Below are positions 8,271 to 44,987 of a stretch of 64,000 nt of DNA, in pieces; position 1 is the stretch's first letter, and each line of letters starts with the position of its first letter. This stretch comes from an uncultured bacterium (GTDB taxonomy: Bacteria; Actinomycetota; Actinomycetes; JAVEEB01), in the NCBI GenBank assembly GCA_964236265.1, contig CAXSDE010000001.1, forward strand, positions 84,614 through 148,613, in the 5' to 3' direction. The notes under the pieces are model-generated. The model saw only the letters and a program-made list of their open reading frames with translations, had not been told where the DNA came from and did not search any database. A program made the position numbers and the translations under genes.

Positions 8271-9796
<1,526 letters not shown>

Positions 9797-9929
9797 AGGC
9801 TCGGACTCCTGGGTCTTCAGGGGTGGACGCACTCGGCGAACAACGATCGGCCGGAGAGCCACGGCCGACTCTACCGGGCGGCGACGGAGAAAGGCATCCG
9901 ACAGCGACGAACCGCGCCCGCGCCCGGCA

Positions 9930-10030
9930 GGGGAACGCCGTTCTGGCCGGGGAACGCCGTTCTGGCCGGGGAACGCCGTTCTGGCCGGGAGTCCGCCGTT
10001 CGGGGCCGGGACGCCGCGGGGCTCGGTACG
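9930..10030. repeat. Tandem direct repeats: 3 perfect and 2 degenerate copies of a 19-21 bp unit, in the divergent purF / S8-protease intergenic region.
   Basis: Perfect copies are ggaacgccgttctggccgg. They are followed by gagtccgccgttcggggccgg and gacgccgcggggctcgg. Confidence 0.8.
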
Positions 10031-10076
10031 CTGTCGTCCTGCGTGCGTGCCGGCGCGCCAAGTGCTGGGAGCCCGC

Positions 10077-27284: not shown

Positions 27285-27773
27285 TCAGCCGTAGGCGGGG
27301 CGCGCCGTCGCGGGGCGGTCGCGGTCCTCCTGGTCGAGGCGCTTGCCGATCGCATCCGGCGACGACCAGAGCAGAGCCTTCTCCATGTGGACGATCGTGC
27401 CGGCCTCCGGCCTGTTGCTGAAGGTGATCGTGTCGACGAGGTGCTGCATCAACAGCATGCCGCGGCCCTGCTCCGCCGTCGGCGGAGCGGTCAGCTCGGC
27501 CAGTGACGACGAGTCGAAGCCGTGCCCGGCGTCCACGACCTCGATGACGCACCGCTCGCCGTCGATGCCGGCGGAAACGAAATAGTCGTCGCCGCTGGCC
27601 GCATGGAGCAGCACGTTGGTGCACGCCTCGGACAAGGCGGTCTCGATGTCCTCGATGCACTCCTCGGCGACCTCGAGGGTGCGCAGCGACTGCGTCGTGA
27701 GATGCCGGATGACGGACACGGACACGGAGTCGCGCGGCAGCGACAGGCTGACCTTGATCTCCACGGGCGGCAC
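27285..27773 (-). CDS. Anti-sigma regulatory factor / Ser kinase (HATPase_c_2, RsbW/SpoIIAB-like), inserted between purS and purQ.
   Basis: ...TALSEACTNVLLHAASGDDYFVSAGIDGERCVIEVVDAGHGF...EQGRGMLLMQHLVDTITF... is a Bergerat-fold kinase signature. Confidence 0.7.
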   Translation of the reverse strand: MPPVEIKVSLSLPRDSVSVSVIRHLTTQSLRTLEVAEECIEDIETALSEACTNVLLHAASGDDYFVSAGIDGERCVIEVVDAGHGFDSSSLAELTAPPTAEQGRGMLLMQHLVDTITFSNRPEAGTIVHMEKALLWSSPDAIGKRLDQEDRDRPATARPAYG

Positions 27774-28276: not shown

Positions 28277-28570
28277 ATGTCGAACGTCAAGGTCACTTAC
28301 CAGGAAATGCGCACCGCCGGTGACAAGCTCAACACCGGCAAGGACGAGATCTTCCAGAACCTCGACCACCTCAAGCGCGAGATCGAGAACCTGCTGCAGG
28401 CGGGCTACGTCACCAGCAACTCCTCCGGCAAGTTCCAGCACTCCTACGAGACGTTCAACACGGGTGCTCGCGCCGTGCTCGAGGGACTGACGGAGATGTC
28501 CGGCTATCTGCACACGGCGGCGCACACGTTCGAGGAAGCCGACACGTTGCTCGCGGGCAAGCTCGCCTAG
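28277..28570 (+). CDS. WXG100/ESAT-6-like small helical protein (97 aa). The canonical W-x-G is replaced by Y-V-T...G. Monocistronic.
   Basis: MSNVKVTYQEMRTAGDKLNTGKDEIFQNLDHLKREIENLLQAGYVTSNSSGKFQHSYETFNTGARAVLEGLTEMSGYLHTAAHTFEEADTLLAGKLA has a helix-turn-helix hairpin pattern like EsxA/YukE. Strong RBS (aaggagacagtcATG). A perfect terminator lies 26 nt downstream. Confidence 0.55.
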   Translation: MSNVKVTYQEMRTAGDKLNTGKDEIFQNLDHLKREIENLLQAGYVTSNSSGKFQHSYETFNTGARAVLEGLTEMSGYLHTAAHTFEEADTLLAGKLA

Positions 28571-28595
28571 CCACCTCGGACAAACCGCACCACCG

Positions 28596-28636
28596 CACAA
28601 GGGCACGGCCGGCTGGCCGTGCCCTTGTGCGTTTCC
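28596..28636 (+). terminator. Rho-independent terminator after the WXG100-like gene.
   Basis: Perfect 15-bp GC-rich stem cacaagggcacggcc / ggccgtgcccttgtg with loop ggct, followed by cgtttcc. Confidence 0.6.
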
Positions 28637-28772
28637 GGCCGAGTCGGGCGTTTCCGGGCCGGGCGTCCGCGCGGGCGTGCGGGCGGGCGTCCAGGCGGGC
28701 CGGCGGGGCGGCGAACGCGTTGACATGTCGCGGTCTCTGGCCCGCGATATCTCAACGCGTCTTGGGTGACGA

Positions 28773-29333
28773 TCAGCGCGGCGGGTACTTAGCCGCCAGC
28801 TTCCGAATCGTTGTCATATTGCGCGCGGTGCCCTCGCCGTTGACGGACAGTCGGCGTACGACGGAGGGCGGCAACGTGGTGTCCGTCATCCGGCCGTGAC
28901 GCAGCCAGTAGAACTCCCGCTGACCGAAGGCGAACCGGTCCTCGTCGTTTGCCGCACCGAGGAGTGCATCGCGGAGGCTCGCGTCCGGCGCCACGCGAAG
29001 GAAGGTGACGTGCAGGGCGTGAGTGTCGTCGCGGTCGACGCCCGGAAAGGGGTCGTACGCCGCGATGGCCGCGAGCTCGCTCTCGGTGCGCAGGAAGGTC
29101 GCCACGGAAAAACCGAGCGCCGCGTGCAGCACACGTTCCAGAGCGACCTCGAGAGCGTCCGACCTCTCGCGGGACCCCGTTGACGCGAGGATGTTGCCGC
29201 TGGCAAGGAAGGTTTCGACGCCCGTGAATCCGGCGGCCTCGAACGGCGCGACGAAGTCGGCCTTCCTCACGTTCCGGCCGCGGACGTTGATGCCGCGCAG
29301 GAACGCCACGTAACGAACCGTCATGCGAGCCAT
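28773..29333 (-). CDS. DUF1697-family protein.
   Basis: MARMTVRYVAFLRGINVRGRNVRKADFVAPFEAAGFTGVETFLASGNILAS... matches DUF1697 N-termini. The longer ORF-track N-terminal extension is translated from the intergenic repeats and is unlikely to be real. Confidence 0.7.
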   Translation of the reverse strand: MARMTVRYVAFLRGINVRGRNVRKADFVAPFEAAGFTGVETFLASGNILASTGSRERSDALEVALERVLHAALGFSVATFLRTESELAAIAAYDPFPGVDRDDTHALHVTFLRVAPDASLRDALLGAANDEDRFAFGQREFYWLRHGRMTDTTLPPSVVRRLSVNGEGTARNMTTIRKLAAKYPPR

Positions 29334-29366
29334 GCTGCCAGGATCGCCCGACGACGCCAGGCGCGG

Positions 29367-29429
29367 GACGTGCCGACAGGCGCGGCGGACGTGCCGGCAG
29401 GCGGGCCGGACGTGCCGGCAGGGGGGCCG
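29367..29429. repeat. Three tandem 21-bp direct repeats (ggacgtgccg[a/g]cagg[c/g]g[c/g]gg[c]c) in the divergent DUF1697 / pilin-operon promoter region.
   Basis: Seen directly. A 21-bp period is two helical turns. About 150 bp upstream of the pilin-like gene 1 start. Confidence 0.75.
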
Positions 29430-29576
29430 TGGGTGGCGAGCGGCGGCGCGATCAAGCGCGGGCAGGCTCGAGCGGGCCAAAGATTACTCCGAACGCTGCT
29501 AAAGCGCTCTGATGGCTGGGCCGACCTTCAACTCACGTGCGCCCGGGATTGACCCGGCCGCGCTGGAGGGAGTCCC

Positions 29577-31013
29577 GTGCTTGCGCGCCTGCGTTCGAGG
29601 CTCGACGACGACGGCTTCACGCTGGTCGAAGTCATGATCTCGCTCGTCATCTTCGCCCTGATCAGCACCGTCGCCGCGGTTGGTCTGCTCTCCAACCTCC
29701 GCTCCGCCGGGTCCAACCGCGCCCGCGTGACGGCCGCTGACCTGGCTTTGAAGGAGATCGAGACCGTCCGCTCAGCCTTCATGTCTCAGGCTCAGCAAGC
29801 CGGGCCCACGACCGTCCTGCAAAACCTCGTCGAGAACCCGCAGCCGAACGGCACCGAAGGCGGCCCGACGATGGACACCGTGGTCCAGGGCCGCGCGTAC
29901 AAGGTGTGGCGTGACGCGGAATGGGAGCCCCTCAACGACACCGCCGGGCCGTGCGACGGCTTGGCCGGCGGTGCGAGCAAGCCACTGGCCTATCTGCGGG
30001 TCACGGTCACCGTCGTCTGGGCCAACATGGGTTCGACGACACCAGTCACCAACACGACCCTGTTGACGCCGCCACTGGGCACATACAAGGACGGGCAGGG
30101 TCACCTCAAGGTGAAGGTGACCGACATCAACGCGGCCCCGTTGACCAACATCGACGTGAACGTCTATCAGACGACCCCGAAAGTGCTCGTCCAGACAGGC
30201 GCCACTGGCCCGGACGGCTGCGCGTTCTTCGCGTACCTGACTCCGGGCAACTACACGGTCGAGGTGACCAAGCCGGGCTACGTCACGACCGACTGGCTCA
30301 ACCTGTTCAGCTACCCCACGAGCGTCACCGCCAACAACGTGACCTCGGTGCCGGTCAGTTATACGCCGCAAGCCGACCTTCAGCTGGCGTTCGACCCAGC
30401 GGCCGTCCCCACGCCCTACGCGGCGCCCGTCAACGCCACCATGAGTTACTACAGCCCCAACCTTCCGGTGACGGGTTCCCCCACGTGGACGGGCTGGCAG
30501 CGTGCACGCTCGACACTCCCGGCACCGACGCTGCCGCTCTTGCACCCATGGCCCGACTCGTACGGCGTCGCGGCGTGGGCCGGTGACTGCTACGACTCGG
30601 ACCCCGGCTTCTACCCTCCTGCGTCCCGGCAGAAGTTCGTGCCCGTCGTCGGCAGCCCGATGAGCACGCCCGTCACGGGCGCCCTCGTCGCCGTGAAGAT
30701 CAGCGGGGCCGCCATCGGACAGACGTTCTATGCGGAACATGCCAAGTTCATACCGGTCACACCTCCGACATCGCCCGTCACATACACGACCACCCTGGCG
30801 TGCCCCGCGACAGCGGCCGCCAACGACACTCTCGGGACCGCCATGGGCGAGATCCTCACGTTCCCGGCCGGCACGGTCGCGAGCGGCACCACCGCAGCCA
30901 ACATCCTGCTCCCGTACGGCATCTGGACTATCCGGTCCACGACGGGCAACAAGGTAGTCACGGTCACCGTTACTCCCACCAGCACCTACCCGATGGCGGT
31001 GACCCTCACATGA
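29577..31013 (+). CDS. Large prepilin-type N-terminal cleavage/methylation domain protein (478 aa; modular pseudopilin-like with beta-sandwich/CarboxypepD_reg-like modules).
   Basis: N-terminus MLARLRSRLDDDG|FTLVEVMISLVIFALISTVAAVGLL has a positive leader, G at -1, F at +1, E at +5 and a 20-aa hydrophobic helix, which is a class-III (type IV prepilin) signal. GTG start with GGAGGGA RBS. HLKVKVTD...GCAFFAYLTPGNYTVEVTKPGYV is a Cna-B/CarboxypepD_reg-like segment. Confidence 0.75.
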   Translation: MLARLRSRLDDDGFTLVEVMISLVIFALISTVAAVGLLSNLRSAGSNRARVTAADLALKEIETVRSAFMSQAQQAGPTTVLQNLVENPQPNGTEGGPTMDTVVQGRAYKVWRDAEWEPLNDTAGPCDGLAGGASKPLAYLRVTVTVVWANMGSTTPVTNTTLLTPPLGTYKDGQGHLKVKVTDINAAPLTNIDVNVYQTTPKVLVQTGATGPDGCAFFAYLTPGNYTVEVTKPGYVTTDWLNLFSYPTSVTANNVTSVPVSYTPQADLQLAFDPAAVPTPYAAPVNATMSYYSPNLPVTGSPTWTGWQRARSTLPAPTLPLLHPWPDSYGVAAWAGDCYDSDPGFYPPASRQKFVPVVGSPMSTPVTGALVAVKISGAAIGQTFYAEHAKFIPVTPPTSPVTYTTTLACPATAAANDTLGTAMGEILTFPAGTVASGTTAANILLPYGIWTIRSTTGNKVVTVTVTPTSTYPMAVTLT

Positions 31014-31768
31014 TGCGGCTGATCCAGCGGGCACAGAAGGACGATGGCGGCTTCAGCCTCGTCGAGTTGCTCATCTCGATGACCATCTTCTCCGTCCTGA
31101 TGGGCATGGTCTTCACCGTCCTCATCACGACGCAGAAGCAGGTCGCGGGCGCCGGCGTCCGGCTGGACGACATCGACCAGGGCCGCATGGCGCTGGATGT
31201 GCTGTCGCGGACCTTGCGCACCGCCGTCGAACCGGCGCAGCTGCAGGTCTTCTGCACGACGTGCGGCGGTTCCGGAACGGCCGCGGGTGCAACAGCGATC
31301 ACCGACGCGCAGCAGCTGACGATCACTCTCTACTCCAACACGGACTCGGCGGCCGGCCCGAACCTGATCACGTTCTCGGTCCAGTACGACAGCTCGTTGA
31401 AGATGACGACGCTGACGAAGTCGACCCAACCTCCGGACGTGGGATCAGCGCCGAACTACATCTACACGACATGCACACCGGGCCCTGGGTGTTCGAAGCG
31501 GGTAATGACCTTGGTCAAGGGGGTCACATTCCCGGTGGGCGCCCCGTCTTTCTTCCAGTATTTCGACAACAAGGGCAGCGATATCACGCCGGTGAGCGCC
31601 GGCACGAGCCTGACCCTGAGCCAGCTGATCACCATCGACTCGGTCGGCATCAACATGACCGTCGACACGCCGGACAATTTCAAGGCCGGGCCGACCACGA
31701 TCTACAGCCGCGTCGGCCTTCCCAACTCCGGGACGGGCGTCCTCGTCCTTCCCACCGCGACATCATGA
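31010..31768 (+). CDS. Prepilin-type N-terminal domain protein 2 (252 aa), translationally coupled.
   Basis: MMRLIQRAQKDDGG|FSLVELLISMTIFSVLMGMVFTVLI with G-F-x-x-x-E. The ATG overlaps the gene-1 stop (ATGATG). Confidence 0.75.
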   Translation: MMRLIQRAQKDDGGFSLVELLISMTIFSVLMGMVFTVLITTQKQVAGAGVRLDDIDQGRMALDVLSRTLRTAVEPAQLQVFCTTCGGSGTAAGATAITDAQQLTITLYSNTDSAAGPNLITFSVQYDSSLKMTTLTKSTQPPDVGSAPNYIYTTCTPGPGCSKRVMTLVKGVTFPVGAPSFFQYFDNKGSDITPVSAGTSLTLSQLITIDSVGINMTVDTPDNFKAGPTTIYSRVGLPNSGTGVLVLPTATS

Positions 31769-33753
31769 GGGCCTCTATGAGAATCGGTTGGATAGCGCGA
31801 CGGATCGACGCGGCTCGCGGTGACTCCGGTGTCGCCATCGTGCTCGTGGTCGGCGTCGGCATGGTCGTGTCGATGCTGCTTCTCTCCCTGACGGCGTACA
31901 CGATTCTGTCCGTGTCGCACTCACGGCAGGAGCAGGACACGCAGGCGGCGCTATCCGCCGCCCAAGCTGGAGTGGACGACTACCTCAGCCGGCTCAACGC
32001 CAACAACACCTACTGGCAGGTGCCCATCTCGCCGGCGCCGAACCAGTGCGTCGACAATGTGGCCATCCGTACGATCGGCGATGCCTGCGGCGACATAAAG
32101 ACCGGCTGGGCGCCGATCTCGGGTCAGCAGTACACGCCGACGACCGGCAGCACCACGCTCGTCAGCTGCTCCGTCGCCGACTCGGCCGGCAACTTCGCCG
32201 CGCCGTGCGGGGCGTTCCACTACGACGTGGACATCTCGCAGACGATCGCTACCGGGGCCATCAACCTCACGTCGACGGGCAAGGCGCACGGCAAGACGCG
32301 AAGCGTGAAGGTCGTCGTGCGCCGGCAGAGCTTCGGCGACTTCATGTATTACACCGACCTCGAGACGAGCGACCCCGGCAACCCCTTTTCCTACGACGAC
32401 TCCGTGCCGACGCCCAACACCGACCAGTGCTACCAGCACGTCTGGGACACGCCGACCCGGCCGACCTCGTACGTAGTGGCGCCGGCCGGGTCGACCGAGG
32501 GGGCCACCAACTCGGGCTTTACGTGCGATGACATCACGTTTAACGGCGGCGACGTTCTCAATGGGCCGATCCACTCCAACGACGCCATCCGCGTCGGCAC
32601 GGCGACGTTCAACGGACCCGTCACGACGGCGTGGCCGCGGTGCGCACCCAACGCCCTCGGTGTCGCGCCGGGCGTGTCCTACTGTTACCGCGACGCCGTC
32701 GGCACCGCGACGTTCAACAAGAGCATCAAGTACGTCACGCCGCTGTTGATGCCGCCGACACCGGTCGACCTGCGCAAGCAGACGGACCCCGCACAGGTGA
32801 CAAACCCCGGCTGCATGTACGAAGGTCCGACACGCATCCAGTTCCAGCCCGGCGGCTCCATGAAGGTGTGGAGTCCCTACACCCGCACGCTTAACTCAGG
32901 TTGCGGGTCAGTGAGCGGCTTCCAGACCAACCCGACGCAGCCGCAGACGATCACGCCCCCGGCCAACAACGTCATCTACGTCGACCCGTCACCGGCCAGC
33001 GTCGGAGCGACCAACGGCCCGTGCCCGGCAGGCTTCGTCGGTGGGTTGCCGGTGACCCCGACAACCGGCGGCACCGGCAGCACGACCGGTGACATCAACG
33101 CAATCTGGGGGGACTACGACTGCACCCAGGGCACGCTCTACGTCGACGGCACCTTCAACGGCCGCATGACCGTCGGATCCTCGGCCAACATCATCATCGT
33201 CGGTGACCTGAAGTACGACACCAGCGCGGCCGGCAACGACAGCCTCGGCCTCGTGGCCCAGACGAGCGTGGAGATCTACCACCCCGTGCGCTGCCAGACC
33301 TGGTACAACGTCGACTCGGCCAGCCCGCCGCACAAGGCATGCCTCCCGAACAATTCCGGTGGCAACAGCTCGGAGATCGCGCGCAATGCCGGTGCCGGGG
33401 GACCGCTGCCCGGCACGCCGACCCTGAGCGGCTACTTCGCCAACCCCATCGTCAACGCCGCCATGCTGTCGCTGCAGCACAGCTTCGTGGTGCAGGCCTA
33501 CAACCTCGGGACCGCGTCGAACCTCGGCTCGGGCGGTCTGTCCGTGTTCGGCTCGATCGCGCAGAAGTTCCGCGGCGCGGTCGCGACGAGCAACAGTTCC
33601 GGCACCATCGTCACCGGCTACAAGAAGGTGTACACGTACGACAACCGCTTGAAGTTCGCGCCGCCGCCCTACTACCTTGACCCGGTTGCGTCGAAGTACA
33701 TCTCGGCGGTGTTTTCGGAGATTCCGCCGGCGTACAAGCCGACCGATCCGTAG
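31765..33753 (+). CDS. Large (662 aa) PilX_N/TadG-like pseudopilin-associated protein, Gly/Thr/Asn-rich, possibly beta-helical. The third gene of the operon. Possible alternative start at 31777.
   Basis: N-terminus MRASMRIGWIARRIDAARGDSGVAIVLVVGVGMVVSMLLLSLTAYTIL resembles PilX_N/TadG N-termini. The ATG overlaps the gene-2 stop. The rest is a long low-hydrophobicity G/T/S/N-rich region. Confidence 0.6.
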   Translation: MRASMRIGWIARRIDAARGDSGVAIVLVVGVGMVVSMLLLSLTAYTILSVSHSRQEQDTQAALSAAQAGVDDYLSRLNANNTYWQVPISPAPNQCVDNVAIRTIGDACGDIKTGWAPISGQQYTPTTGSTTLVSCSVADSAGNFAAPCGAFHYDVDISQTIATGAINLTSTGKAHGKTRSVKVVVRRQSFGDFMYYTDLETSDPGNPFSYDDSVPTPNTDQCYQHVWDTPTRPTSYVVAPAGSTEGATNSGFTCDDITFNGGDVLNGPIHSNDAIRVGTATFNGPVTTAWPRCAPNALGVAPGVSYCYRDAVGTATFNKSIKYVTPLLMPPTPVDLRKQTDPAQVTNPGCMYEGPTRIQFQPGGSMKVWSPYTRTLNSGCGSVSGFQTNPTQPQTITPPANNVIYVDPSPASVGATNGPCPAGFVGGLPVTPTTGGTGSTTGDINAIWGDYDCTQGTLYVDGTFNGRMTVGSSANIIIVGDLKYDTSAAGNDSLGLVAQTSVEIYHPVRCQTWYNVDSASPPHKACLPNNSGGNSSEIARNAGAGGPLPGTPTLSGYFANPIVNAAMLSLQHSFVVQAYNLGTASNLGSGGLSVFGSIAQKFRGAVATSNSSGTIVTGYKKVYTYDNRLKFAPPPYYLDPVASKYISAVFSEIPPAYKPTDP

Positions 33754-33774
33754 ACCGCGCATCACGAGCAACGG

Positions 33775-33816
33775 GAGAGCCGCCGGCATGATGCCGGCGG
33801 CTCTCGTCGTCTTTCC
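33775..33816 (+). terminator. Rho-independent terminator of the pilin-like operon.
   Basis: Perfect 14-bp stem gagagccgccggca / tgccggcggctctc, 3-nt loop, then gtcgtctttcc. Confidence 0.55.
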
Positions 33817-33880
33817 GGCGTGTACGAAGGCAGTTTCCCGCGTCGCCCGGCCTCAGCACACCGCTCGACACTGCCTCTAG

Positions 33881-36800
33881 CTAGCCCGTCGCGATGTCCC
33901 CGGCCGTCGTCACCGGCGCCTGCACCGTGACCAGCTCGCCGTCGCCGCTGTGCAGATACCCGCGGCCCGCGCTGACTGGTCCTCCGATGATGCTGCGCGG
34001 CAGCCGCACCCCGATGAGGTCGCCGTCACCGATGCCCTGCGGGGACAGCAGAATGCCGGTGCGGCCGCGCTTCATGTCGACCTGCCATCCGCTGAAGCCG
34101 GTGCACACGTCGTCGGTGCCGCCGGCAACGACGACAGCCTGACCACGTTCCGCTCCGTGCCGGATGACGTCCCGCAACACGTCGGCCGCCCCGCACTCCT
34201 TCAGCAACTCTGCGTCGTCGACCAGCACCACGACAGGACCGGTCCCGCCCGCGAGCACCGTGGCCAGTTCCGCCGGAAGGACGGAGCCCTCGTACGACGC
34301 CAGCACGCCGGGGTGACCCGCGAGCTCCCGCAGCGGCGACGGCTTCGGCGTGGCCAGGACCACCGATGCCCCGCGCGCGAGCAACGACACCGCCATCGTC
34401 ACCAGCAGGCCGCTGCGCCCCGACCGGGGCGCGCCGCCGATGATGAACGTCGGCGTGCGCGCGAGGTCGGCGCCGTACGCCGTCCACTCGTCGCCCCCGA
34501 CTCCCACCAGCGACCACAACGGCGACGTCGTGTCGACGAGCGTGTCCGCCTCGGCGTAGCTGAGCTTCGTCGGGAGCAGCTCCACCCGGAACGGCCGCAA
34601 CCCGCGCGGGACGTCCGGCTCCCGCTCGCGGGCCTCCGCCGCGATCTCCCGCAGCGCCGCCGCCTGCCCGGCGCCCGTGCCGTCCTTGTCGAGCAAGGCG
34701 ACCTGGATCTCGCGGCCGGTCTCGGCGCGGAACGCGCGGCCGGCGGGCGGGTCGTCCGGCATCGACCGGGGACTGAGCGCCGCGAGGGTGTAGTCGGCCC
34801 GGTCGGCCATGCGGAACGTCAGCCGGTCCTCGCTCATCGCCGCGATCCGCCCCGACAGCACTGTGCGGTCGCCGACGATGACAACGTGCACGCCGACGGT
34901 CGCGCCCTCGCGGAGCAGCTGCGTGATCGCGTCGGTCAGCGCCCCGCCGTCGAGCTCCCCGAGCGTCGAGACGAAGCCCTCCCAGCGGTCGAGCAGCACC
35001 ACGACATGCGGCAACCGCTCGCCCGCCGCGCTCGCCGCCCGCTGTTCGCCGATGTCGGACACACCCAGCCGGCCGAGGATCTCCTGCCGCCGCGCGACCT
35101 CCCCGACGAGGCGGCCCAACACGCGCCGGGCGCGCTCCGGTTGCGTACGCGACACGACGGCGCCGCAGTGCGGTAGATCCGCCAGCGGCAGCAGGGCGCC
35201 GTTGCCGCAGTCGAGGCCGTAGATGTGCACGTCGGCGGCCGAGTGCCGGCGCCCGATCGAGCCCGCGATCGTCCGCAGCAATTGGGAGCGCCCACTCCGC
35301 GGTGCCCCCGCCACCAGCAGGTGCCCGAACGTGGCGAAGTCGAGCACGGCCGCGCGCTGGAGCTGCTCCGCCGGCAGGTCCTCGATCCCGAACGGCACGG
35401 TCGCGAGCCCCCCGACCGCGAGCCCCCCGACCGCGAGCCCCCCGACCGCGAGCCCCCCGACCGCCGACCGCGGCGCCGCCGGCCGCGGCGCCGCAATGTC
35501 ATCGAGCACCACATCGGTGCCGAGGGCCGCCAACCACGGGCTGTGCTGCGGCTCCAGACGGAGTTGCTCGTTGGCCGCGCAGATCGCCTCGACCACTGCG
35601 GTCAGATCGGTCTCGGCCTCCTCGTCCGCCCGGACCGTCGGCCGCGCCGGCGCCGGGCGCCCGAGGGCGGCCACGTCCACGTCCACGACGAACGGGTCGG
35701 CGACCACCCGCGCCACCGCGCCCGGTCGCCGCCCACCGACGCGCCCGCTCTGGAACGGCAGGAGCGACGCGTGCCCCAGCCGCGCATACGCGCGCCCGGG
35801 CGTCGACTTCGCGATGCGCGCGGCCTCACCGGTCCCGATGACGTCCGCGCTCTCGCTCACATCCGTGACGCGCAGGGCGATGCGCAGGTTGGTGTTGGCG
35901 CGGATCTCCGGCGAGACGACACCCGACGGCCGCTGCGTGGCGAGGATGAGGTGGATGCCGAGCGAGCGACCGCGTTGGGCGATATTCACCAAGCCTGTCA
36001 CGAAATCCGGGAGGTCGCGCACCATCGACGCGAACTCGTCGATGACGATCAGCAGCCGTGGCATGGCCTCCAGGTACGGCATCGTCCGCATTCCCGCGAC
36101 GTAGTCCTCGATGTCCTTGGCGCCGACCGCCGCCAGCATGTGTTCCCGGCGCTTCAGCTCCGCCGACAGGGATTCCAACGCGCGGCCCACGAGGTGCGCG
36201 TCGAGGTCGGTGACCATGCCGACGGTGTGCGGCAGCCGTACACAATCCTTGAACGCACTGCCGCCCTTGTAGTCGATGAGGACGAACGTCATCGCGTCCG
36301 GTTTGTTGGCCACCGCCAGCGACGCGACGATCGACTGCAGCAGCTCGGACTTGCCGGAGCCCGTCGTGCCGGCGATCAGCCCGTGCGGGCCGTCGCGCGA
36401 CAGGTCGAGGGAGAACGCGCCGTCCATCCCCTCGCCGATGACGAATTCGGTCGACCGGCCGCCCGAGAGCCACCGGGCCGCGATGTCGGGCGCCGTCGGC
36501 GGGTCGAGCTGCAACACGTCGAGCAAGCGGCTGGACGACGGGATCGCCCCGCCGCTCTCGTCCGCGCTGGTGTCGCGGATCGGCGCCAGCGCGCGGGCCA
36601 CCCGTTCGGCCCACCCGGCGGGCACCTCGTCTGGCCGCACGTCCTCGACCGTCTCCGCCCGCATCTGCCGCAGGGTGAGCCGCCCGCTCCCGGGATCGAC
36701 GGTGACGACGGCCTGGCACTCCTCGGGCAGCAACCGCTCGTCGGCGTCGAGGCAGACGACGAACATCCCGACCGACGGGCCGTCGCGCAGCAACTGCGCG

Positions 36801-38299
36801 ACACCCGGCAGCGAACGCAGCCGCCGCGCGCCGTCGAGCACCACCACGATGTCCGTCGCGAACGTCACCGTCGACGACTCCCGCGCCGCGTCGCGCCGCG
36901 CGGTCAGCATCGTGATGAGCTCGCCGATCCGGCGCCCGACGGTCTCGTTGTCGGAGCCGATCAGCGCGATCGTGTCCTGCCCGTCGGCTGGCCGCGTGTG
37001 CGGCAGCCAGCGCACCCAGGCCCACTCGCCGCGGGACTGCGAGTCGGTCAGCACGCACAGCTGCACGTCGCGCGGGCTGTGCAGGACACCCAGCTGGGTG
37101 ACGAGGCAGCGCGTCACCGCGGTCGCGAGCGGTCCGCGGCCGGCGATGCCGAGCACGCCACGTTCGGTCAGCGACACCGGCACCGGCACCGCGTGCGCGA
37201 GCGGGTGCTGCTCGCGCCGATGGTCGTCCTGCGCCGGGTCCTCGACCGTGACGTCGCTCCGGAGGTCGGCGGTGCCGACACGCAGGACGAGATAGTCGGG
37301 GTCGTGCCGCCGCCGCTCCCACAGCCGCCGGCGCGGACCCACCGCAGTGAGCAGCAGCTCGGCGGGGTCGGGGCATTCGGCCCGCCGCGCCAATCGCTCG
37401 AGCCCCAGCGCCTCCTGGACATCCGCCTCGATGCGCGCCGTCGTCTCCCGGAACTGCGCCAGTTGTTTCCGGTACGACGACCTCCCGTGGCGACGGTCGG
37501 CGAAGAAGTTGGCCACGAGCGCCACGGGGCTGAGCAGACCCATCAACAGATAGCGCGGCTGGTGCATCACGGTCGCCATGACACCGGCGCCGATCAGCGG
37601 CACGAGGGCCATGATGATCGGGATGGGGCGGCGGTCGTTCTCGCGCGGCTGGGACGGCAGCTTGAACGCGGTCTGGCGTTTCGGCGGGTGCAGGCGCGGC
37701 GGGCGGTTGTAATCCAGGCCCGCGCCGTCGGCGGAGACCACGAGCGCGGCGTCGGGCGCGCTGGGCCGGCCGAGCTCGAGCAGCACACTGCCGAGGTCGA
37801 CGACGTCGCCCGGCTCCCAGGGGACCGCCCCGGTCACCTCGGCGTCCTCCAGAGCGATCTGCGCGCCGGCGAACGGCGTCAGCGCGCAGCGCCCGTCGGA
37901 GGCGACCGCGAGGACGAACTCGTGCGAGAGCGCCCCCGGCGCGCTCAGCACCACTCCGCAGTCGGCAGCAGCGCCGACGTCGTATTCCCCCGGCGCGAGG
38001 CGGTGGACGAGCCCCGCGTCCGGACCGCCGACGATCCGCAACTCGATCACGCCCGGCGGCTCGGTCGGGACGCACCCGGCGGCCGTGCCGAAGCTGACGA
38101 TGCAGCCGTCCCGCAGCCGCGAGTCGGGCACCGGCATCGACGGGTCGAGGAGCACCCCGTCGACGTACGCCGGGCGGGACTCGACTCCCAGCCGAGCCGC
38201 GAGCGCAGCCACCGCGAGACCGACCGTCGAGCCGTCGTCGAGGTCGATGAGCACGTCCTCGCGCGCGCCGCCGACCGCATCGACGGCCGTGAGAGTCAT
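33881..38299 (-). CDS. FtsK/SpoIIIE-family triple-ATPase, EssC/EccC-like (type VII secretion motor architecture), with an N-terminal ubiquitin-like + FHA module and a TM segment.
   Basis: 1472 aa from ATG 38299 (MTLTAVDAVGG...). FHA-like block IELRIVGGPDAGLVHRLAPGEYDVGAAADCGVVL...SHEFVLAV. TM helix IPIIMALVPLIGAGVMATVM. Three P-loops: GTTGSGKSELL plus LLIVIDEF, GAPRSGRSQLL and GAPRSGRSGLL. Confidence 0.85.
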   Translation of the reverse strand: MTLTAVDAVGGAREDVLIDLDDGSTVGLAVAALAARLGVESRPAYVDGVLLDPSMPVPDSRLRDGCIVSFGTAAGCVPTEPPGVIELRIVGGPDAGLVHRLAPGEYDVGAAADCGVVLSAPGALSHEFVLAVASDGRCALTPFAGAQIALEDAEVTGAVPWEPGDVVDLGSVLLELGRPSAPDAALVVSADGAGLDYNRPPRLHPPKRQTAFKLPSQPRENDRRPIPIIMALVPLIGAGVMATVMHQPRYLLMGLLSPVALVANFFADRRHGRSSYRKQLAQFRETTARIEADVQEALGLERLARRAECPDPAELLLTAVGPRRRLWERRRHDPDYLVLRVGTADLRSDVTVEDPAQDDHRREQHPLAHAVPVPVSLTERGVLGIAGRGPLATAVTRCLVTQLGVLHSPRDVQLCVLTDSQSRGEWAWVRWLPHTRPADGQDTIALIGSDNETVGRRIGELITMLTARRDAARESSTVTFATDIVVVLDGARRLRSLPGVAQLLRDGPSVGMFVVCLDADERLLPEECQAVVTVDPGSGRLTLRQMRAETVEDVRPDEVPAGWAERVARALAPIRDTSADESGGAIPSSSRLLDVLQLDPPTAPDIAARWLSGGRSTEFVIGEGMDGAFSLDLSRDGPHGLIAGTTGSGKSELLQSIVASLAVANKPDAMTFVLIDYKGGSAFKDCVRLPHTVGMVTDLDAHLVGRALESLSAELKRREHMLAAVGAKDIEDYVAGMRTMPYLEAMPRLLIVIDEFASMVRDLPDFVTGLVNIAQRGRSLGIHLILATQRPSGVVSPEIRANTNLRIALRVTDVSESADVIGTGEAARIAKSTPGRAYARLGHASLLPFQSGRVGGRRPGAVARVVADPFVVDVDVAALGRPAPARPTVRADEEAETDLTAVVEAICAANEQLRLEPQHSPWLAALGTDVVLDDIAAPRPAAPRSAVGGLAVGGLAVGGLAVGGLATVPFGIEDLPAEQLQRAAVLDFATFGHLLVAGAPRSGRSQLLRTIAGSIGRRHSAADVHIYGLDCGNGALLPLADLPHCGAVVSRTQPERARRVLGRLVGEVARRQEILGRLGVSDIGEQRAASAAGERLPHVVVLLDRWEGFVSTLGELDGGALTDAITQLLREGATVGVHVVIVGDRTVLSGRIAAMSEDRLTFRMADRADYTLAALSPRSMPDDPPAGRAFRAETGREIQVALLDKDGTGAGQAAALREIAAEAREREPDVPRGLRPFRVELLPTKLSYAEADTLVDTTSPLWSLVGVGGDEWTAYGADLARTPTFIIGGAPRSGRSGLLVTMAVSLLARGASVVLATPKPSPLRELAGHPGVLASYEGSVLPAELATVLAGGTGPVVVLVDDAELLKECGAADVLRDVIRHGAERGQAVVVAGGTDDVCTGFSGWQVDMKRGRTGILLSPQGIGDGDLIGVRLPRSIIGGPVSAGRGYLHSGDGELVTVQAPVTTAGDIATG
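35401..35470 (-). repeat. In-frame 15-bp tandem repeat (x4) encoding (GGLAV)4 in the linker between ATPase domains 1 and 2 of the EssC-like protein.
   Basis: cgcgagccccccgac x4 on the plus strand. The protein reads SAVGGLAVGGLAVGGLAVGGLATVPF. Confidence 0.8.
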
Positions 38300-38482
38300 G
38301 CGCACCCGCGCCACGCTAGCCGCCGCGAGCGCCCAGGGCCGCATTCTGTCCACAACGCCCGGGGGCCGCAGATCAAGCCATGGCCGGCAGACCGGCCCGG
38401 GCCGAGCTGAGTGCCCGCGACCGCACAGGCCGAATAGGGTGTGTCCCCGACAAGCACGCGCGACGCAGGAGGGCGGACCGAA

Positions 38483-38971
38483 ATGGCCAGCGAGGACCCG
38501 ACTGTCCCTAGTGCCGATGACGTCCTGACCCGGATCGGGCAGGCGGTCGCGGCGGCCGGCGGCGGGGACACGGACGGGGCACGCGCGACGCTCGAGGCGT
38601 TGTGGGTCCAGGCGCGCGGGCCGACAGCCGACGCCCTCCATCAGTTGGCCATCGCGCACGCCTTGGCCGACCTGCAGGACGACCCGCGCGAGGAGCTGGC
38701 GTGGGACCTGCTGGCGCTGCAGGCGGCCGCGGACGTCACCGACGAGCGTGTCGCCCGTTCCGGAATGCCGGGGCGCGCCGCCGCCCTCTACCCGTCACTG
38801 CACCACAACCTCGGCGAGGACTACCGCACACTCGGCGAGCTGGAGGCCGCCCGCCGCCACGCCGCTCTGGGTCTGGACGCCGTGGTCCACCTGGGCGACG
38901 ACGGCTACAGCCGGATGATCACGGCCGGCCTGCAACGCCTGCGCGACAGGCTGGCCGAGCTGCCTGAGTAG
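38483..38971 (+). CDS. Hypothetical helical protein, divergent from the EssC-like gene.
   Basis: MASEDPTVPSADDVLTRIGQAVAAAG... is Ala/Leu-rich and helical. RBS GGAGGGCGGA upstream. No domain recognised. Confidence 0.45.
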   Translation: MASEDPTVPSADDVLTRIGQAVAAAGGGDTDGARATLEALWVQARGPTADALHQLAIAHALADLQDDPREELAWDLLALQAAADVTDERVARSGMPGRAAALYPSLHHNLGEDYRTLGELEAARRHAALGLDAVVHLGDDGYSRMITAGLQRLRDRLAELPE

Positions 38972-41373: not shown

Positions 41374-44300
41374 TTATCGAGAGGCGGGCCGCGCGAGCGG
41401 CACGGCCGCCGACAACACTGCCGCCGCGACGTCGACAGCCGGGACGGGCCGGGAGAAGAGGAACCCCTGGCCGTAGGCGCAGCCGAACGACGCGAGCATC
41501 TCCCGCTCCGCGGCGTGCTCGATGCCCTCGGCGATCACATCGACGCCGAGGCTCGCGCCCATCATCACGATCGTGCGCGCCAGCTCGGCACTCCGCGAGC
41601 CGTTGCTCATCGCGACGACGAACGACCGGTCGATCTTCAGGCCGTCGATGCGGAACCGGTGCAGCGCGGCCAACGAGGAGTAACCGGTCCCGAAATCGTC
41701 GATGTGCACCTCGTGGCCGCGCTGGTGCATCGCCTCGACGATCCGTTCCGCGTGTCGGTCGTTGTGCATGATGACGCCCTCGGTGATTTCGAGGACGAGC
41801 GCTCGCGGCTCGAGAGCATGCTCCGCGATGCACGCGTCGAGGTGGGTGAGCACGCCCGCGTCCCAGAACTCCTTGTTGGACAGGTTGATGCTCACGGGCA
41901 GGCCGGCCGCGAGGTGGTTGTCGTCGCGCCAGCTCGCGACCTGGCGGCACGCCTCGTCGACCACCCAGCGGCCGATCGGCACGATGAGCGCCGTGTCCTC
42001 CGCGACCGGCAGGAACTCGCCCGGGGGCATGAGACCGCCTCGGCCGTCGGGCCAGCGGATGAGCGCTTCGAAGCCCCGCACCTCGCCGCTGGCGATGCTG
42101 ACGATCGGTTGGTAGTGGAGCTCGAAATCGCCGCGCTCGACGGCGACCCGCAGCTGCGTCTCGATCGACATCCGGTTGACGAGCCGCAGCCGCATCGTCG
42201 CGTCGAACGTCGCGTGCCTGCCCCGGCCGGCGGTCTTCGCCCGATACATGGCGATGTCCGCGTCGCGGAGCATGTCCTCGGCGCTCTCGTGCTGCTGTTG
42301 TGTGCTGGTGATCCCGATGCTCGCGGAGATCGTCACCAGGTGGCCGCCGATGTCGAACGGCACGGCCAGCGCTGCCTGCAGGCGCCGGGTGATGGCCGGC
42401 ACGTCGGCAGTCGACGCGAGGTCGTCGAGGACGATGACGAACTCGTCGCCACCGATCCGGGCGGCCGTGTCGCCGACGCGGACGAACGACTGCAGACGTT
42501 CGGCGACACCGATGAGCAACTTGTCGCCCGCGACATGGCCCAGGCTGTCGTTGATGACCTTGAACCCGTCGAGGTCGATGAACAGCACCGCGAAGCGGTA
42601 GCGGTCATGCCGCTTCGTGCGGCGGATGGCGACGCCGAGCCGGTCGAGCAGGAGCGCGCGGTTGGGCAGGTTGGTGAGGCTGTCGTAGAGGGCCTGGCGC
42701 CGCAGCCGGTCCTCGAGGGTGCGTCGGTCGTCGACGTCGGTGAGGGAGCCGACGATCCGCGTCACCGCGCCGCCGGTGGTGACAGCGAGGCCACGGCAAC
42801 GGATCCAGCGCGTGTCGCCGTCATCCGTGGTGATGCGGTGCTCGTAGTCGAGGCTGTCGGTGTGGCCCGCGACCTGCCGGTCGATGACGGCGCGCAGACC
42901 CGCTGCGTCGTCCGGGTGGACGCGGTTGAGCCAGGCGGTGATGTGCGTCGCGGGGACGGTGGTGCTGCCGAGGACAGCCAGACTGCGGTCGGAGTAGAAG
43001 ACGGTGCCGGTCGTCAGGTCCCAATCCCACAGGCCGTCGTTGGCGGCGGCCGCCGCGAGGGCATACCGCTGCTCGCTGCGCCCGATGTCGGCTGCCAGCC
43101 GCTGCTCGCGGTCCAGCGATTCGGCAAGGGACACCTGCTGGCTGCGCAGGGACTGCCAGACATCCTCGTGGTCGAGGGCGACGCCGACGAGGGCGGCCCA
43201 CTGGTGGAACGTCTCGTGTCCTGTCGCGTCCCGGTTTTCCACGGATGCCACGACCGCCAGGAGAGCGTCCTCGGTCCCGCCCGTCGTGATCGGGATGACG
43301 AGGACGATGCCATCGGGATGAGCGAGCGCCCGCTCGATCAGCGCCGCCGACGGGAAGTCACGCTCAGCGACATCGCTGCCGGCGAGTATCGACAGCTCGT
43401 CGGCCCGGTCGTACGCGCTGTGGATTCGCAGGACCGGGTCGCCGCTGTCGCTGCGCAGGGCCAGCACGCCCGCCTCGGCACTGGTGGCGCCGAGCCAGCT
43501 GAGGCCGCTGCCCAACCGCCCTCCGCGCAGGAGGGACATGCTCACCTCGTACTGCGTCGTCAGCGAGTCCTGCAGGTGCCGCCAACCGAGGAACTGCTCG
43601 CGCGCTCCCGCGCCGGCCAGGCCGAGGCTGACCTCGACGAGGAGCTCTTCGAGTCGGCGCTCCGGGTCCTCGACGAGGCTGATACCTGCCTCGGCCGCCG
43701 CGGCGAGCCAGCGGCGGGCGCCGTCGCGGAGCAGGCCCGTCACCTGGGCGAGGTCGTCGAGCGGACGGGTGACCGGCCACAGCTTGTCGACCGCGTCACG
43801 CAGGAGCCACAACGTGGCCTCGTCAGCGCTGCGAAGGGCACTCGTGAGAGCCTCGCCGAGCAGGCCGAGCACCGCGTCGCTGCCCTCGGCGGGCGTCGGC
43901 TGCGTCGCGAGCAACGCCCCGGCCAGCGGGCGGAGGGCGACCGCGCCGGCGGTGGCGTCGTGCGGAGCCGGCGTGCCGACGGGCCCCGCGTGGGCGCCCG
44001 CGCACCCACACGAGTGCCGCGCGATGAACCGCGTGGGGATCAGGTGGCACGCGTAGGCCTCCCCCGACCCGTCGATCTGGCGGATCAGCAGGTCGGCAGC
44101 GGCCCAGCCGATCCGTGCGAAGTCCTGTGCGACGGTCGACAGCGACGGCCGGGCGTGCCGGGCCTGATCACCGTCGTCGAACCCGACGATCGCCTGGCCC
44201 TGCGGCAGCAGGACACCCGCGGCGGCGAGCACCCGCATGATGCCGACCGCGTTGAGGTCGGTGCCGGCGACGACGGCGGTCGACGGCAGGCCGGCCGCGA

Positions 44301-44847: not shown

Positions 44848-44987
44848 GTGGCCCGTGCTCCGCCCAGTTGGAGTGTCGGAGTCCATATCGGCCGGACTAT
44901 TGCGGCGGTGAACATTCCACCGCTTCATTTCGCGCGGGCTGCGGTCGGCGTGCGGGAAGGCCGCCTCCCAGCCCGACGGGTGACGCG

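What the first reader, a model, noticed from the sequence alone, without database searches (positions are those of the whole stretch)
28277..38971. Candidate undescribed hybrid locus: WXG100-like protein, three giant prepilin-type proteins and an EssC/EccC-like triple-FtsK ATPase
Three kinds of gene sit within 10 kb. The first is a monocistronic WXG100/ESAT-6-like gene, which is the hallmark substrate of type VII secretion. The second is an operon of three translationally coupled proteins with textbook type IV prepilin leaders (G|FTLVE, G|FSLVE, PilX/TadG-like) that are far larger than any major pilin (478, 252 and 662 aa). The third is a convergent 1472-aa FtsK/SpoIIIE protein whose architecture (ubiquitin-like + FHA, TM, three P-loop domains) matches the EssC/EccC motor of T7SS. 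None of the other canonical T7SS components is present: EccB/EccD/MycP, or EssA/EssB/EsaA. None of the T4P core is present either: PilB/PilT ATPase, PilC platform, prepilin peptidase, or a small major pilin. This pairing of pseudopilin-like proteins with a T7SS-type ATPase matches no established system I know. It could be a pseudopilus-assisted secretion or conjugation-like apparatus in a monoderm or mycolate actinobacterium.
Basis: partly seen in the sequence, partly recalled or inferred. Interest (0 to 1): 0.88.

Follow-up and report, generated by a model that had tools for sequence, protein, structure and literature searches.

The report
Pilus-tip operon beside T7SS-like ATPase
The genes are real, but they look like two separate known systems that lie side by side in one actinobacterial lineage (a type IV pilus tip-pilin operon, and a WXG100 protein with an EssC-like secretion ATPase), not a new hybrid machine.

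Summary

The hybrid interpretation is not supported.
- The three-gene pilin operon is a conserved actinobacterial module. Elsewhere it lies inside or beside canonical type IVa pilus clusters, for example Cellulomonas pilB-pilT-pilC-pilA-[module]-pilD-pilMNO.
- It is never next to an EssC gene outside this lineage (0 of 10 informative loci).
- EssC orthologues are linked to WXG100 genes in 20 of 22 groups.
- Of 22 fetched EssC-orthologue loci, only the closest relative (Frankiaceae MAG) carries the pilin module. Two short metagenome contigs of the same lineage show the same convergent pair. In the MAG the purSQL genes are syntenic too.
- WXG100, the pilin operon and EssC are separate transcription units with their own terminators.

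One caveat remains. In another clade of EssC orthologues a Tad pilus locus abuts the WXG100/EssC genes. This echoes the published, unexplained T7SSg/h-Tad adjacency, so functional cooperation is not excluded.

The EssC family itself appears to be an undescribed T7SS variant.

The parts
28277..28570 (+). WXG100-family gene (97 aa). It is the likely substrate or co-factor of the EssC-like ATPase. It is monocistronic and the hairpin motif has no Trp (SSG).
   Evidence: PF06013 52.1 bits, cutoff 27.3. TIGR03930 41.5 bits, just under the 44.85 cutoff. Orthologues lie near EssC orthologues in 20 of 22 groups. Alignment. 75% identical to the L003 copy.
28600..28629 (+). GC-rich hairpin directly after the WXG100 stop codon; a likely terminator.
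   Evidence: Read from the sequence: CAAGGGCACGGCCGGCTGGCCGTGCCCTTG.
28773..29333 (-). DUF1697 gene on the opposite strand. It is a passenger that separates WXG100 from the pilin operon and is not part of either system.
   Evidence: PF08002, E 4e-31. Conserved in L003 at 70% identity.
29577..31013 (+). Module protein A (478 aa). It is a prepilin-type minor pilin (G|FTLVE) with an Ig-like CarboxypepD_reg domain, proposed as a PilI/PilV/GspH-I-like tip subunit.
   Evidence: N_methyl 30.1 bits, TIGR02532 28.2 bits, CarboxypepD_reg E 1.5e-7. Homologues hold the first position of the same operon in L001, L002, L003, L025, L026 and L039-L041.
31010..31768 (+). Module protein B (252 aa). It is a prepilin-type minor pilin (G|FSLVE), proposed to be PilJ/PilW/GspJ-like.
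   Evidence: N_methyl 33.8 bits. Weak hits to GspJ and to Verru_Chthon cassette protein C. ATGA overlap with A. Conserved second position of the operon.
31765..33753 (+). Module protein C (662 aa). It is a PilX/PilK/GspK/ComZ-like large tip pilin: a long N-terminal helix, a pilin fold and a beta-solenoid. It has Gly22 but no Glu+5.
33775..33805 (.). 14-bp-stem hairpin between the convergent stop codons of protein C and EssC. It is a likely bidirectional terminator.
   Evidence: Terminator scan and sequence.
33881..38299 (-). EssC/EccC-family T7SS-type ATPase (1472 aa). Layout: ubiquitin-like beta-grasp (1-75), FHA (85-178), two TM helices (about 224-270), then three FtsK/SpoIIIE P-loop domains. 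D1 is canonical (GTTGSGKS, VIDEF). D2 and D3 have Arg in place of the Walker A Lys.
   Evidence: dN/dS against L003 is 0.17.
35402..35464 (-). Perfect 15-nt x 4.2 tandem repeat that encodes (GGLAV)x4 in the D1-D2 linker of EssC.
38441..38971 (+). TPR-like 176-aa gene divergent from EssC. tblastn found no copy in the closest relative, so synteny ends at EssC. It is probably unrelated.
   Evidence: Weak TPR_4 hit only. No tblastn hit in L003.

Best explanation
The region holds two independent modules of known kinds that are neighbours by descent in one Frankiaceae-like lineage.

Module 1, the three translationally coupled genes A-B-C, is the minor-pilin initiation (tip) complex of an actinobacterial type IVa pilus.
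- A and B are class-III-signal prepilins, cut by a prepilin peptidase after Gly.
- C is the large PilK/GspK/ComZ-type subunit without Glu5 that caps the trimer.
- The trimer would dock on a PilC/PilMNO platform, prime polymerisation of a small major pilin driven by PilB, and stay at the pilus tip. There the Ig-like domain of A and the beta-solenoid of C would be exposed for binding.
- The machinery (PilB/T/C/D/M and the major pilin) must be encoded elsewhere in the genome. This last point is inferred.

Module 2 is the WXG100 gene plus the convergent EssC-like ATPase, a T7SS-type export pair of a distinct actinobacterial family.
- The ATPase is membrane-anchored and has a fused ubiquitin-like domain and one FHA domain.
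- Its canonical D1 site would supply the ATP hydrolysis, and it would recognise and export WXG100 dimers and partner toxins.
- In relatives the same ATPase lies with WXG100 pairs, T7SS_signal-domain membrane proteins, a TNT toxin and a Ser/Thr kinase.

Shown here: gene content, folds, and conservation patterns of the neighbourhoods. Inferred: the assembly and secretion roles, and the location of the missing machinery.
For: Pilin module elsewhere:
- The A-B-C order is conserved in L001, L002, L003, L025-L029, L031, L033 and L039-L041.
- T4aP machinery genes lie within 10 kb in L001, L025, L026 (Cellulomonas dongxiuzhuiae: pilB-pilT-pilC-pilA-[A-B-C]-pilD-pilM-N-O), L029 and L040 (pilD).
- L002 and L041 carry additional pilin genes. 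None of these loci has an EssC or WXG100 gene.
- The protein C model matches ComZ, GspK and other minor pilins.

EssC side:
- Of the 22 EssC-orthologue loci, only L003 has the module.
- WXG100 lies nearby in 20 of 22 groups.
- The orthologues fall into three clades, and W+L003 form one of them.

Within the lineage:
- In L003 the synteny includes purL-purQ-HATPase-purS, so the adjacency is ordinary inherited gene order.
- Terminators after WXG100 and after C, plus an opposite-strand DUF1697 gene, make three separate transcription units.
- EssC is under purifying selection (omega 0.17) and matches EccC/YukB structures.
Against: - No T4aP machinery and no major pilin lie within the 64-kb window. 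The module could therefore be orphaned or re-used.
- The pilC-EssC convergent pair is kept in three lineage members (W, L003, L037/L038) even though the pilins diverge strongly.
- Pilus-type genes of another kind (Tad) abut EssC orthologues in L004, L013, L014, L019, L020 and probably L011, L017 and L023. T7SSg and T7SSh in Bacillota are always next to Tad genes (PMC11217815). Repeated T7SS/type-IV-filament adjacency may not be chance.
- The usual partners of this EssC family (clusters c2, c3, c5/c12, c17/c18, c8) are absent from the window.
Confidence: 0.77

Rival explanations
1. Functional cooperation without a shared machine. The pilus module (here T4a tip pilins, in other clades a Tad pilus) and the EssC/WXG100 export system are co-selected because pili establish the cell-cell or surface contact needed for contact-dependent delivery of T7SS toxins, or because the two share regulation.
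For: - Tad genes sit in a tight string with the WXG100/EssC genes in L004 (same strand, gaps from -90 to 525 nt), L013, L019 and L020. Tad genes also lie about 6 kb from EssC in Streptomyces L014.
- The pilC-EssC pair is kept in W, L003 and L037/L038.
- Garrett et al. 2024 report that T7SSg and T7SSh are always adjacent to Tad genes and leave the reason open.
- Relatives encode TNT and T7SS_signal toxin-like proteins.
Against: - 12 of 13 Streptomyces orthologue loci have no pilus gene within 10 kb.
- The A-B-C module occurs in 10 informative loci without EssC.
- Each adjacency maps to a single clade, so there are few independent events.
- There is no shared operon in the window.
Confidence: 0.14
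2. A true hybrid apparatus. The three pilin-like proteins form a pseudopilus that is assembled by, or acts as a piston or conduit for, the EssC-like ATPase and replaces the missing EccB/D/E or EssA/B/EsaA components.
For: - Canonical T7SS and T4P partner genes are absent from the window.
- The two units are convergent and adjacent, and this is kept within the lineage.
- The pilin genes diverge faster in this lineage, which could reflect a new role.
Against: - Pilin assembly in every known type IV filament needs a PilB-type hexameric ATPase, a PilC platform and a prepilin peptidase. EssC/EccC ATPases have no known role in this (established knowledge).
- Homologous A-B-C modules lie within complete T4aP clusters.
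- EssC orthologues in Streptomyces operate in loci with no pilin genes.
- The units are transcribed separately.
Confidence: 0.04
3. The large FtsK/SpoIIIE protein is a DNA translocase of an integrated conjugative element (a TraB-like actinomycete conjugation system), and the pilin-like genes are conjugation or competence pilus genes.
For: The Pfam FtsK_SpoIIIE domain is present. There are weak NCBIfam hits to plasmid TraB (38 bits) and FtsK (77 bits). NCBI names fragments of this family 'cell division protein FtsK'.
Against: - EssC/EccC models score 312-563 bits against 38-77 bits for the DNA translocases.
- The best PDB matches are EccC and YukB over more than 700 residues.
- It has three tandem P-loop domains and is linked to WXG100 in 20 of 22 groups.
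- The flanks are housekeeping pur genes, syntenic with a relative. Pfam scans of the neighbouring genes found no integrase or replication gene.
Confidence: 0.02

Closest known systems
Minor-pilin tip initiation complexes of type IV filaments (PilI-PilJ-PilK / PilV-PilW-PilX / GspI-GspJ-GspK), and the Thermus thermophilus tip pilin ComZ
   Same: - Three co-transcribed pilin-like genes.
- The first two have the G|F..xE class III signal.
- Homologous modules lie inside T4aP clusters.
- The role of such complexes in priming and capping the fibre is described in PMC13533445, PMC7541494 and PMC6561018.
   Different: - All three proteins are unusually large (478, 252 and 662 aa).
- Protein A carries an Ig-like CarboxypepD_reg domain.
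- There is no PilY1/PilC adhesin and no fourth (GspH/FimU-like) gene in the module.
- In this genome the module is separated from any pilus machinery.
- Whether A and B correspond to PilI and PilJ was not tested structurally.
T7SSb EssC/YukB with EsxA and the ubiquitin-like YukD/EsaB (Bacillota)
   Same: - A membrane ATPase with an N-terminal FHA fold, two TM helices and tandem FtsK-like domains.
- The best NCBIfam model is TIGR03928, and it aligns to YukB 9qks.
- It is linked to a WXG100 gene.
- A ubiquitin-like domain is involved. YukD binds YukB and controls assembly (bioRxiv 10.1101/2025.01.24.634720).
   Different: - The score is below the equivalog cutoff (563 against 778 bits).
- There is one FHA domain, not two.
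- The ubiquitin-like domain is fused to the ATPase instead of being a separate protein.
- The Walker A Lys is replaced by Arg in D2 and D3 across the whole family.
- No EssA, EssB or EsaA was found in the window.
- The host is actinobacterial.
T7SSa/ESX EccC with EsxA/B (Actinomycetota)
   Same: Same phylum. The best solved relative is Thermomonospora EccC 4nh0 (E 1e-85). EccCa and EccCb models hit at 421 and 312 bits. A WXG100 partner is present.
   Different: - Both scores are below the cutoffs.
- EccC has no FHA or ubiquitin-like N-terminus; in ESX systems the ubiquitin-like fold is on EccD (established knowledge).
- No EccB, EccD, EccE or MycP is nearby.
T7SSd (Olsenella/Bifidobacterium), and T7SSg/T7SSh (Bacillota, next to Tad loci), from Garrett, Higginson and Palmer 2024 (PMC11217815)
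   Same: - T7SSd: actinobacterial, with an FHA-bearing ATPase and a Ser/Thr kinase. The Streptomyces orthologue loci here also carry a kinase next to EssC.
- T7SSg/h: always adjacent to Tad pilus genes, as in one clade of orthologues here.
   Different: - T7SSd has no ubiquitin-like component and has TsdH and TsdI. No TsdI-like giant Ig protein was seen here.
- The T7SSg/h ATPases lack FHA domains.
- Streptomyces, Frankia and Nocardioides are not mentioned in that paper.
- The window has T4a-type minor pilins, not Tad genes.

Membership tests
WXG100 (PF06013) | About 100 aa and an HMM score above the Pfam gathering threshold | tested here: met
   97 aa; 52.1 bits against 27.3.
WXG100 (PF06013) | Trp-x-Gly motif in the hairpin turn | tested here: not met
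   The hairpin reads ...GYVTSNSSGKF... with no Trp. The same holds for its direct orthologues. It is therefore a WXG100-superfamily member by HMM with a degenerate motif. TIGR03930 scores 41.5, under the 44.85 cutoff.
WXG100 (PF06013) | Genomic linkage to an EssC/EccC-type ATPase | tested here: met
   It lies 5.3 kb from the ATPase here. WXG100 cluster members lie within 10 kb in 20 of 22 groups (window plus orthologue loci).
EssC/EccC T7SS ATPase | Two N-terminal TM helices followed by three tandem FtsK/SpoIIIE P-loop domains | tested here: met
   A hydrophobic segment at 224-247, and model helices at 228-245 and from 249. Walker A sites at 644, 998 and 1289. Alignment to EccC 4nh0 covers residues 373-1210.
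EssC/EccC T7SS ATPase | Score above the curated equivalog cutoffs (TIGR03928, TIGR03924, TIGR03925) | tested here: not met
   563/778, 421/509 and 312/347 bits. It belongs to the superfamily but is not an equivalog of T7SSb EssC or T7SSa EccC.
T7SSa (ESX) | EccB, EccD, EccE and MycP encoded with EccC | tested here: not met
   Pfam scans of the window's genes found none. The only subtilase (about 10500-13142) carries FG-GAP and Big_5 domains and lies 15 kb away, beyond the kdp genes. The rest of the genome could not be searched.
T7SSb | EssA, EssB/YukC, EsaA and a separate EsaB/YukD | tested here: not met
   None in the window. A ubiquitin-like fold is instead fused to the ATPase N-terminus. 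The YukD Pfam model hits 1 of 18 orthologues.
Type IV (class III signal) prepilin | Short basic leader, Gly-1, hydrophobic helix, Glu+5; N_methyl/TIGR02532 above cutoff | tested here: met
   A: DDDG|FTLVE, 30.1 and 28.2 bits. B: DDGG|FSLVE, 33.8 and 24.8 bits. C has Gly22 and a hydrophobic helix but no Glu+5 and no HMM hit, as expected for GspK/PilK-type subunits.
PilI-J-K / GspI-J-K tip initiation complex | Third subunit with a GspK/PilK-like pilin fold, large and without Glu5 | tested here: met
PilI-J-K / GspI-J-K tip initiation complex | First two subunits are PilI/GspI-like and PilJ/GspJ-like and form a trimer with the third | tested here: inconclusive
   Only weak hits, confined to the N-terminal helix, to GspH, PilV and GspJ. 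No structure models or multimer prediction could be run for A and B.
Type IVa pilus system | PilB ATPase, PilC platform, PilD peptidase, PilM(NO) and a small major pilin in the same genome | not testable with these tools
   Absent from the 64-kb window, but only the window is available. Homologous modules are next to these genes in L001, L025, L026, L029 and L040.

The most novel reading that the evidence does not exclude
This actinobacterial EssC family (ubiquitin-like fold, FHA, EssC, with WXG100 proteins that lack Trp) is an undescribed T7SS subtype whose function is tied to type IV filaments. In most non-Streptomyces lineages it lies in a supercluster with a Tad pilus. In the Frankiaceae-like lineage a fast-evolving T4a tip-pilin module took that place. 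The filament would provide contact, or cell-wall passage, for T7SS toxin delivery.
Probability: 0.1. Interest if true: 0.8.

Novelty: new variant of a known kind. Interest (0 to 1): 0.35.

Why it matters
As posed, a pilin/T7SS hybrid machine, the finding would have been a new secretion principle. The evidence instead points to inherited adjacency of two known kinds, so the locus itself is ordinary. Three by-products have some value.
1. There is a widespread actinobacterial EssC family (13 Streptomyces loci, Aeromicrobium and several MAGs among those fetched). It has a fused ubiquitin-like domain, one FHA domain, Arg-substituted D2/D3 P-loops and its own conserved partners. NCBI labels fragments of it 'cell division protein FtsK'. 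It is absent from the published T7SSa-j scheme, at least in the literature I could search.
2. This family adds actinobacterial cases to the unexplained recurrence of Tad loci next to T7SS loci.
3. It defines a conserved three-gene ComZ/GspK-type tip module of actinobacterial type IVa pili, with very fast-evolving alleles. That is useful for annotating these usually 'hypothetical' giant pilin-like proteins.

Tried and rejected
- Exact-sequence look-ups of the window's EssC, protein C and its database twin P0001 found no contig on record. Cluster look-up gave no names or accessions. The source genome therefore could not be inspected for pilus machinery.
- PDB sequence searches gave nothing significant for protein C (best E 0.056, to unrelated cupin proteins) and nothing for the EssC N-terminus or cluster c5. 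Fold comparison was needed instead.
- The YukD Pfam model barely detects the N-terminal domain (1 of 18).
- The metagenome scan with the protein C alignment confirmed only 10 loci, few of them with long flanks.
- The search with the EssC N-terminus returned only fragmentary proteins.
- I considered horizontal cassette replacement as the reason for the pilin divergence. It is not clearly supported: the NJ tree still groups W, P0002 and L003, and dS is not clearly higher than in the flanks.
- I considered and rejected the S8 protease (about 10500-13142) as a mycosin, and the FtsK-like gene as a conjugative translocase.
- Literature searches found no description of this Streptomyces/Frankiaceae EssC family. 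The library does not cover subscription journals.

Full report
**1. Observation**

The window is about 70% G+C, so I selected genes by GC3 bias and checked them against the ORF list. The region contains:
- a 97-aa WXG100-family gene (28277-28570, +);
- an opposite-strand DUF1697 gene (28773-29333);
- three translationally coupled genes A, B and C (29577-31013, 31010-31768 and 31765-33753; ATGA overlaps at both junctions);
- a convergent 1472-aa FtsK/SpoIIIE-family gene (33881-38299, -);
- a small TPR-like gene (38441-38971).

- WXG100: PF06013 scores 52.1 bits against a cutoff of 27.3.
- A and B: N_methyl/TIGR02532 score above cutoff. A also has an Ig-like CarboxypepD_reg domain.
- The ATPase: TIGR03928 EssC at 563 bits, EccCa at 421 and EccCb at 312. 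All are strong, and all are below the equivalog cutoffs.

**2. Surroundings**

The flanks are housekeeping genes. Upstream are purL, purQ, an anti-sigma-kinase-like HATPase_c_2 gene and purS. Downstream are another HATPase_c_2 gene, a large GGDEF-EAL protein, msrA, a catalase and purB. Further out are kdp genes, an S8/FG-GAP protease and purD. Nothing in the 64 kb matches EccB/D/E, MycP, EssA/B or EsaA by Pfam. Nothing matches PilB/T/C/D/M/N/O by tblastn.

A hairpin follows the WXG100 gene. A 14-bp-stem terminator lies between the stop codons of C and the ATPase. With the opposite-strand DUF1697 gene, this makes WXG100, A-B-C and the ATPase three separate transcription units.

**3. The ATPase**

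Its best solved relatives are T7SS motors: Thermomonospora EccC 4nh0 (E 1e-85), B. subtilis YukB 9qks (E 2e-69) and EccC5. DNA translocases match only over one motor domain.

I built an AF2 model of residues 1-330 on 23 sequences (pLDDT 79). It shows:
- a beta-beta-alpha-beta-beta grasp domain at residues 1-75;
- an FHA sandwich at residues 85-178;
- two long helices from residue 228.

D1 has canonical Walker A and B motifs. D2 and D3 carry GxPRSGRS (Lys replaced by Arg) in all 20 sequences aligned, so this is a family trait.

**4. Where the ATPase's orthologues live**

A scan of species-representative genomes returned 22 loci. The closest is a Frankiaceae MAG (L003, 80% identity). The rest include 13 Streptomyces loci (52-54%), Aeromicrobium phragmitis and several MAGs. 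Clustering the neighbouring genes gave these results:
- WXG100 genes lie near the ATPase in 20 of 22 groups (window plus orthologue loci), often as pairs.
- Other recurrent neighbours:
  - a T7SS_signal-domain membrane protein (14 loci);
  - a small protein, c3 (12 loci);
  - a Ser/Thr kinase with a PQQ propeller (10 loci);
  - a secreted-protein and lipoprotein pair (c5/c12 with c18/c17);
  - a TNT toxin domain gene in L017.
- None of these partners occurs anywhere in the window.
- The pilin genes A, B and C were found only in L003.

**5. Where the pilin operon's homologues live**

Protein C has 79 database homologues; sources name a few of them 'PilX'. Wherever enough sequence exists, the A-B-C order is conserved.
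- Cellulomonas dongxiuzhuiae (L026): the module lies between pilA and pilD in pilB-pilT-pilC-pilA-[A-B-C]-pilD-pilM-N-O.
- L001 and L025: it is divergent from pilB/T-pilC, small pilins, pilD and pilM.
- L029: PilC, PilA, PilD and PilM lie upstream.
- L040: pilD follows it directly.
- L002 and L041: more pilin genes are nearby.
- L028, L031 and L039: it is alone.
- None of these ten loci has an EssC or WXG100 gene.

C keeps a nearly invariant Gly22 before its hydrophobic helix but has no Glu+5. That is the GspK/PilK pattern. I therefore read A-B-C as a PilI-J-K-type initiation and tip complex (framework: PMC13533445, PMC7541494).

**6. Within the lineage**

L003 shares the order purL-purQ-HATPase-purS-WXG100-DUF1697-A-B-C-EssC with the window. 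Synteny stops after EssC. Two short metagenome contigs (L037, L038) carry a C homologue convergent with an EssC C-terminus that is 79% identical.

Amino-acid identity between the window and L003, by gene:

| Gene | Identity (%) |
|---|---|
| purL | 90 |
| purQ | 90 |
| purS | 83 |
| EssC | 80 |
| WXG100 | 75 |
| DUF1697 | 70 |
| HATPase_c_2 | 68 |
| B | 41 |
| C | 41 |
| A | 31 |

dN is 0.52-0.72 for the pilins and 0.06-0.22 for the flanks. EssC has omega 0.17. An NJ tree still groups W, P0002 and L003, on long branches. I therefore favour accelerated in-lineage divergence of surface-exposed proteins over replacement from a distant donor, but I cannot settle this.

The adjacency is thus inherited along with ordinary housekeeping synteny. 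That is not evidence of shared function.

**7. Mechanism**

*Module 1 (inferred from homology).* PilD would cut A and B after Gly. A, B and C would assemble into a trimer capped by C. That trimer would prime PilB-driven polymerisation of a major pilin on a PilC/PilMNO platform encoded elsewhere, and would remain at the tip as the binding end.

*Module 2 (inferred).* The membrane ATPase would oligomerise. Its fused ubiquitin-like domain may play the assembly role that free YukD plays on YukB (bioRxiv 10.1101/2025.01.24.634720). D1 would hydrolyse ATP, and WXG100 dimers with partner effectors would be exported. The other membrane components are unknown or encoded elsewhere.

**8. The caveat**

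In the third clade of EssC orthologues a Tad locus lies in one string with the T7SS genes: tadA-tadB-tadC-tadE-like genes-c17-c12-c8 (LysM/BTAD)-WXG100, next to EssC.
- In L004 everything is on one strand with short gaps. L013, L019 and L020 have the same content.
- L011, L017 and L023 are cut off at the point where the Tad genes would begin.
- One Streptomyces locus (L014) has tadC and a tadE-like gene about 6 kb from EssC.

Garrett, Higginson and Palmer (PMC11217815) reported that T7SSg and T7SSh in Bacillota are always adjacent to Tad genes, and they left the reason open. So adjacency of a type IV filament to a T7SS recurs. Each case here maps to one clade, and 12 of 13 Streptomyces loci lack pilus genes. 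I therefore give functional cooperation about 0.14 and a true hybrid machine about 0.04.

**9. Comparison and novelty**

The pilin module is a new, unusually large member of the minor-pilin tip-complex kind. The ATPase and WXG100 pair is a T7SS variant that fits none of T7SSa-j as described. Its features are:
- a fused ubiquitin-like domain and a single FHA domain;
- Arg in the D2 and D3 P-loops;
- WXG100 proteins without Trp;
- its own partner set.

I found no description of it in the searchable literature. NCBI calls fragments of it 'cell division protein FtsK'.

The locus as a 'hybrid' is most likely two neighbours. Interest is modest (0.35). The residual novel reading, a filament-coupled T7SS subtype, gets about 0.1 probability.

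Noticed in passing
L004:1-14224; L013:9995-22542; L019:9995-24451; L020 (same layout); L014:9929-24549: A Tad pilus locus (tadA, tadB, tadC, TadE-like genes) is strung together with a lipoprotein (c17), a secreted protein (c12), a LysM/BTAD membrane protein (c8), WXG100 genes and the EssC orthologue. This occurs in a whole clade of orthologues and partly in one Streptomyces locus. It parallels the published, unexplained T7SSg/h-Tad adjacency in Bacillota.
   Followed up: partly
window 29577-33753 compared with L003:7949-12032: The pilin operon is only 31-41% identical between two relatives whose flanking genes are 68-90% identical (dN 0.5-0.7 against 0.06-0.22). Either these tip proteins evolve very fast or alleles are exchanged.
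   Followed up: partly
window 35402-35464: A perfect 15-nt x 4.2 tandem repeat encodes (GGLAV)x4 in the D1-D2 linker of the EssC-like gene. The L003 orthologue is 23 aa shorter overall.
   Followed up: no
window 29358-29429: A 21-nt x 3 direct repeat (about 90% identical copies) lies in the divergent intergenic region between the DUF1697 gene and the pilin operon. It could be an operator array.
   Followed up: no
window 27288-27773: An anti-sigma-factor-kinase-like HATPase_c_2 gene is inserted between purS and purQ, inside the purSQL cluster. The insertion is conserved in the Frankiaceae MAG L003 (68% identity).
   Followed up: no
window 33881-38299 and all orthologues (L003-L023): The Walker A lysine is replaced by arginine (GxPRSGRS) in both D2 and D3 of every family member aligned, while D1 is canonical. 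This suggests that D2 and D3 bind nucleotide but do not hydrolyse it.
   Followed up: partly
window 28277-28570 and orthologues: The WXG100 proteins of this orthologue group have no tryptophan in the hairpin: G(Y/F)(V/T)T..(S/A)S(G/K). They keep a conserved C-terminal (Y/F)E(D/E)xD..LA. Many loci also encode a second, more typical WXG-like paralogue that the window lacks.
   Followed up: partly
L017:10001-15523: The EssC orthologue has four in-frame stops, which may be long-read MAG errors or a pseudogene. A gene with a tuberculosis-necrotizing-toxin (TNT) domain lies directly beside it.
   Followed up: no
window 41377-45411: A 1345-aa protein combines LacI-type periplasmic-binding domains, PAS, GGDEF and EAL. 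A second PAS-GGDEF-EAL protein lies at the window start (3-1955).
   Followed up: no
window 8267-10459 (-) and 9765-13145 (+): Two long high-GC3 ORFs overlap on opposite strands. The + strand ORF encodes an S8 subtilase with FG-GAP repeats and a Big_5 domain. The status of the - strand ORF was not resolved.
   Followed up: no
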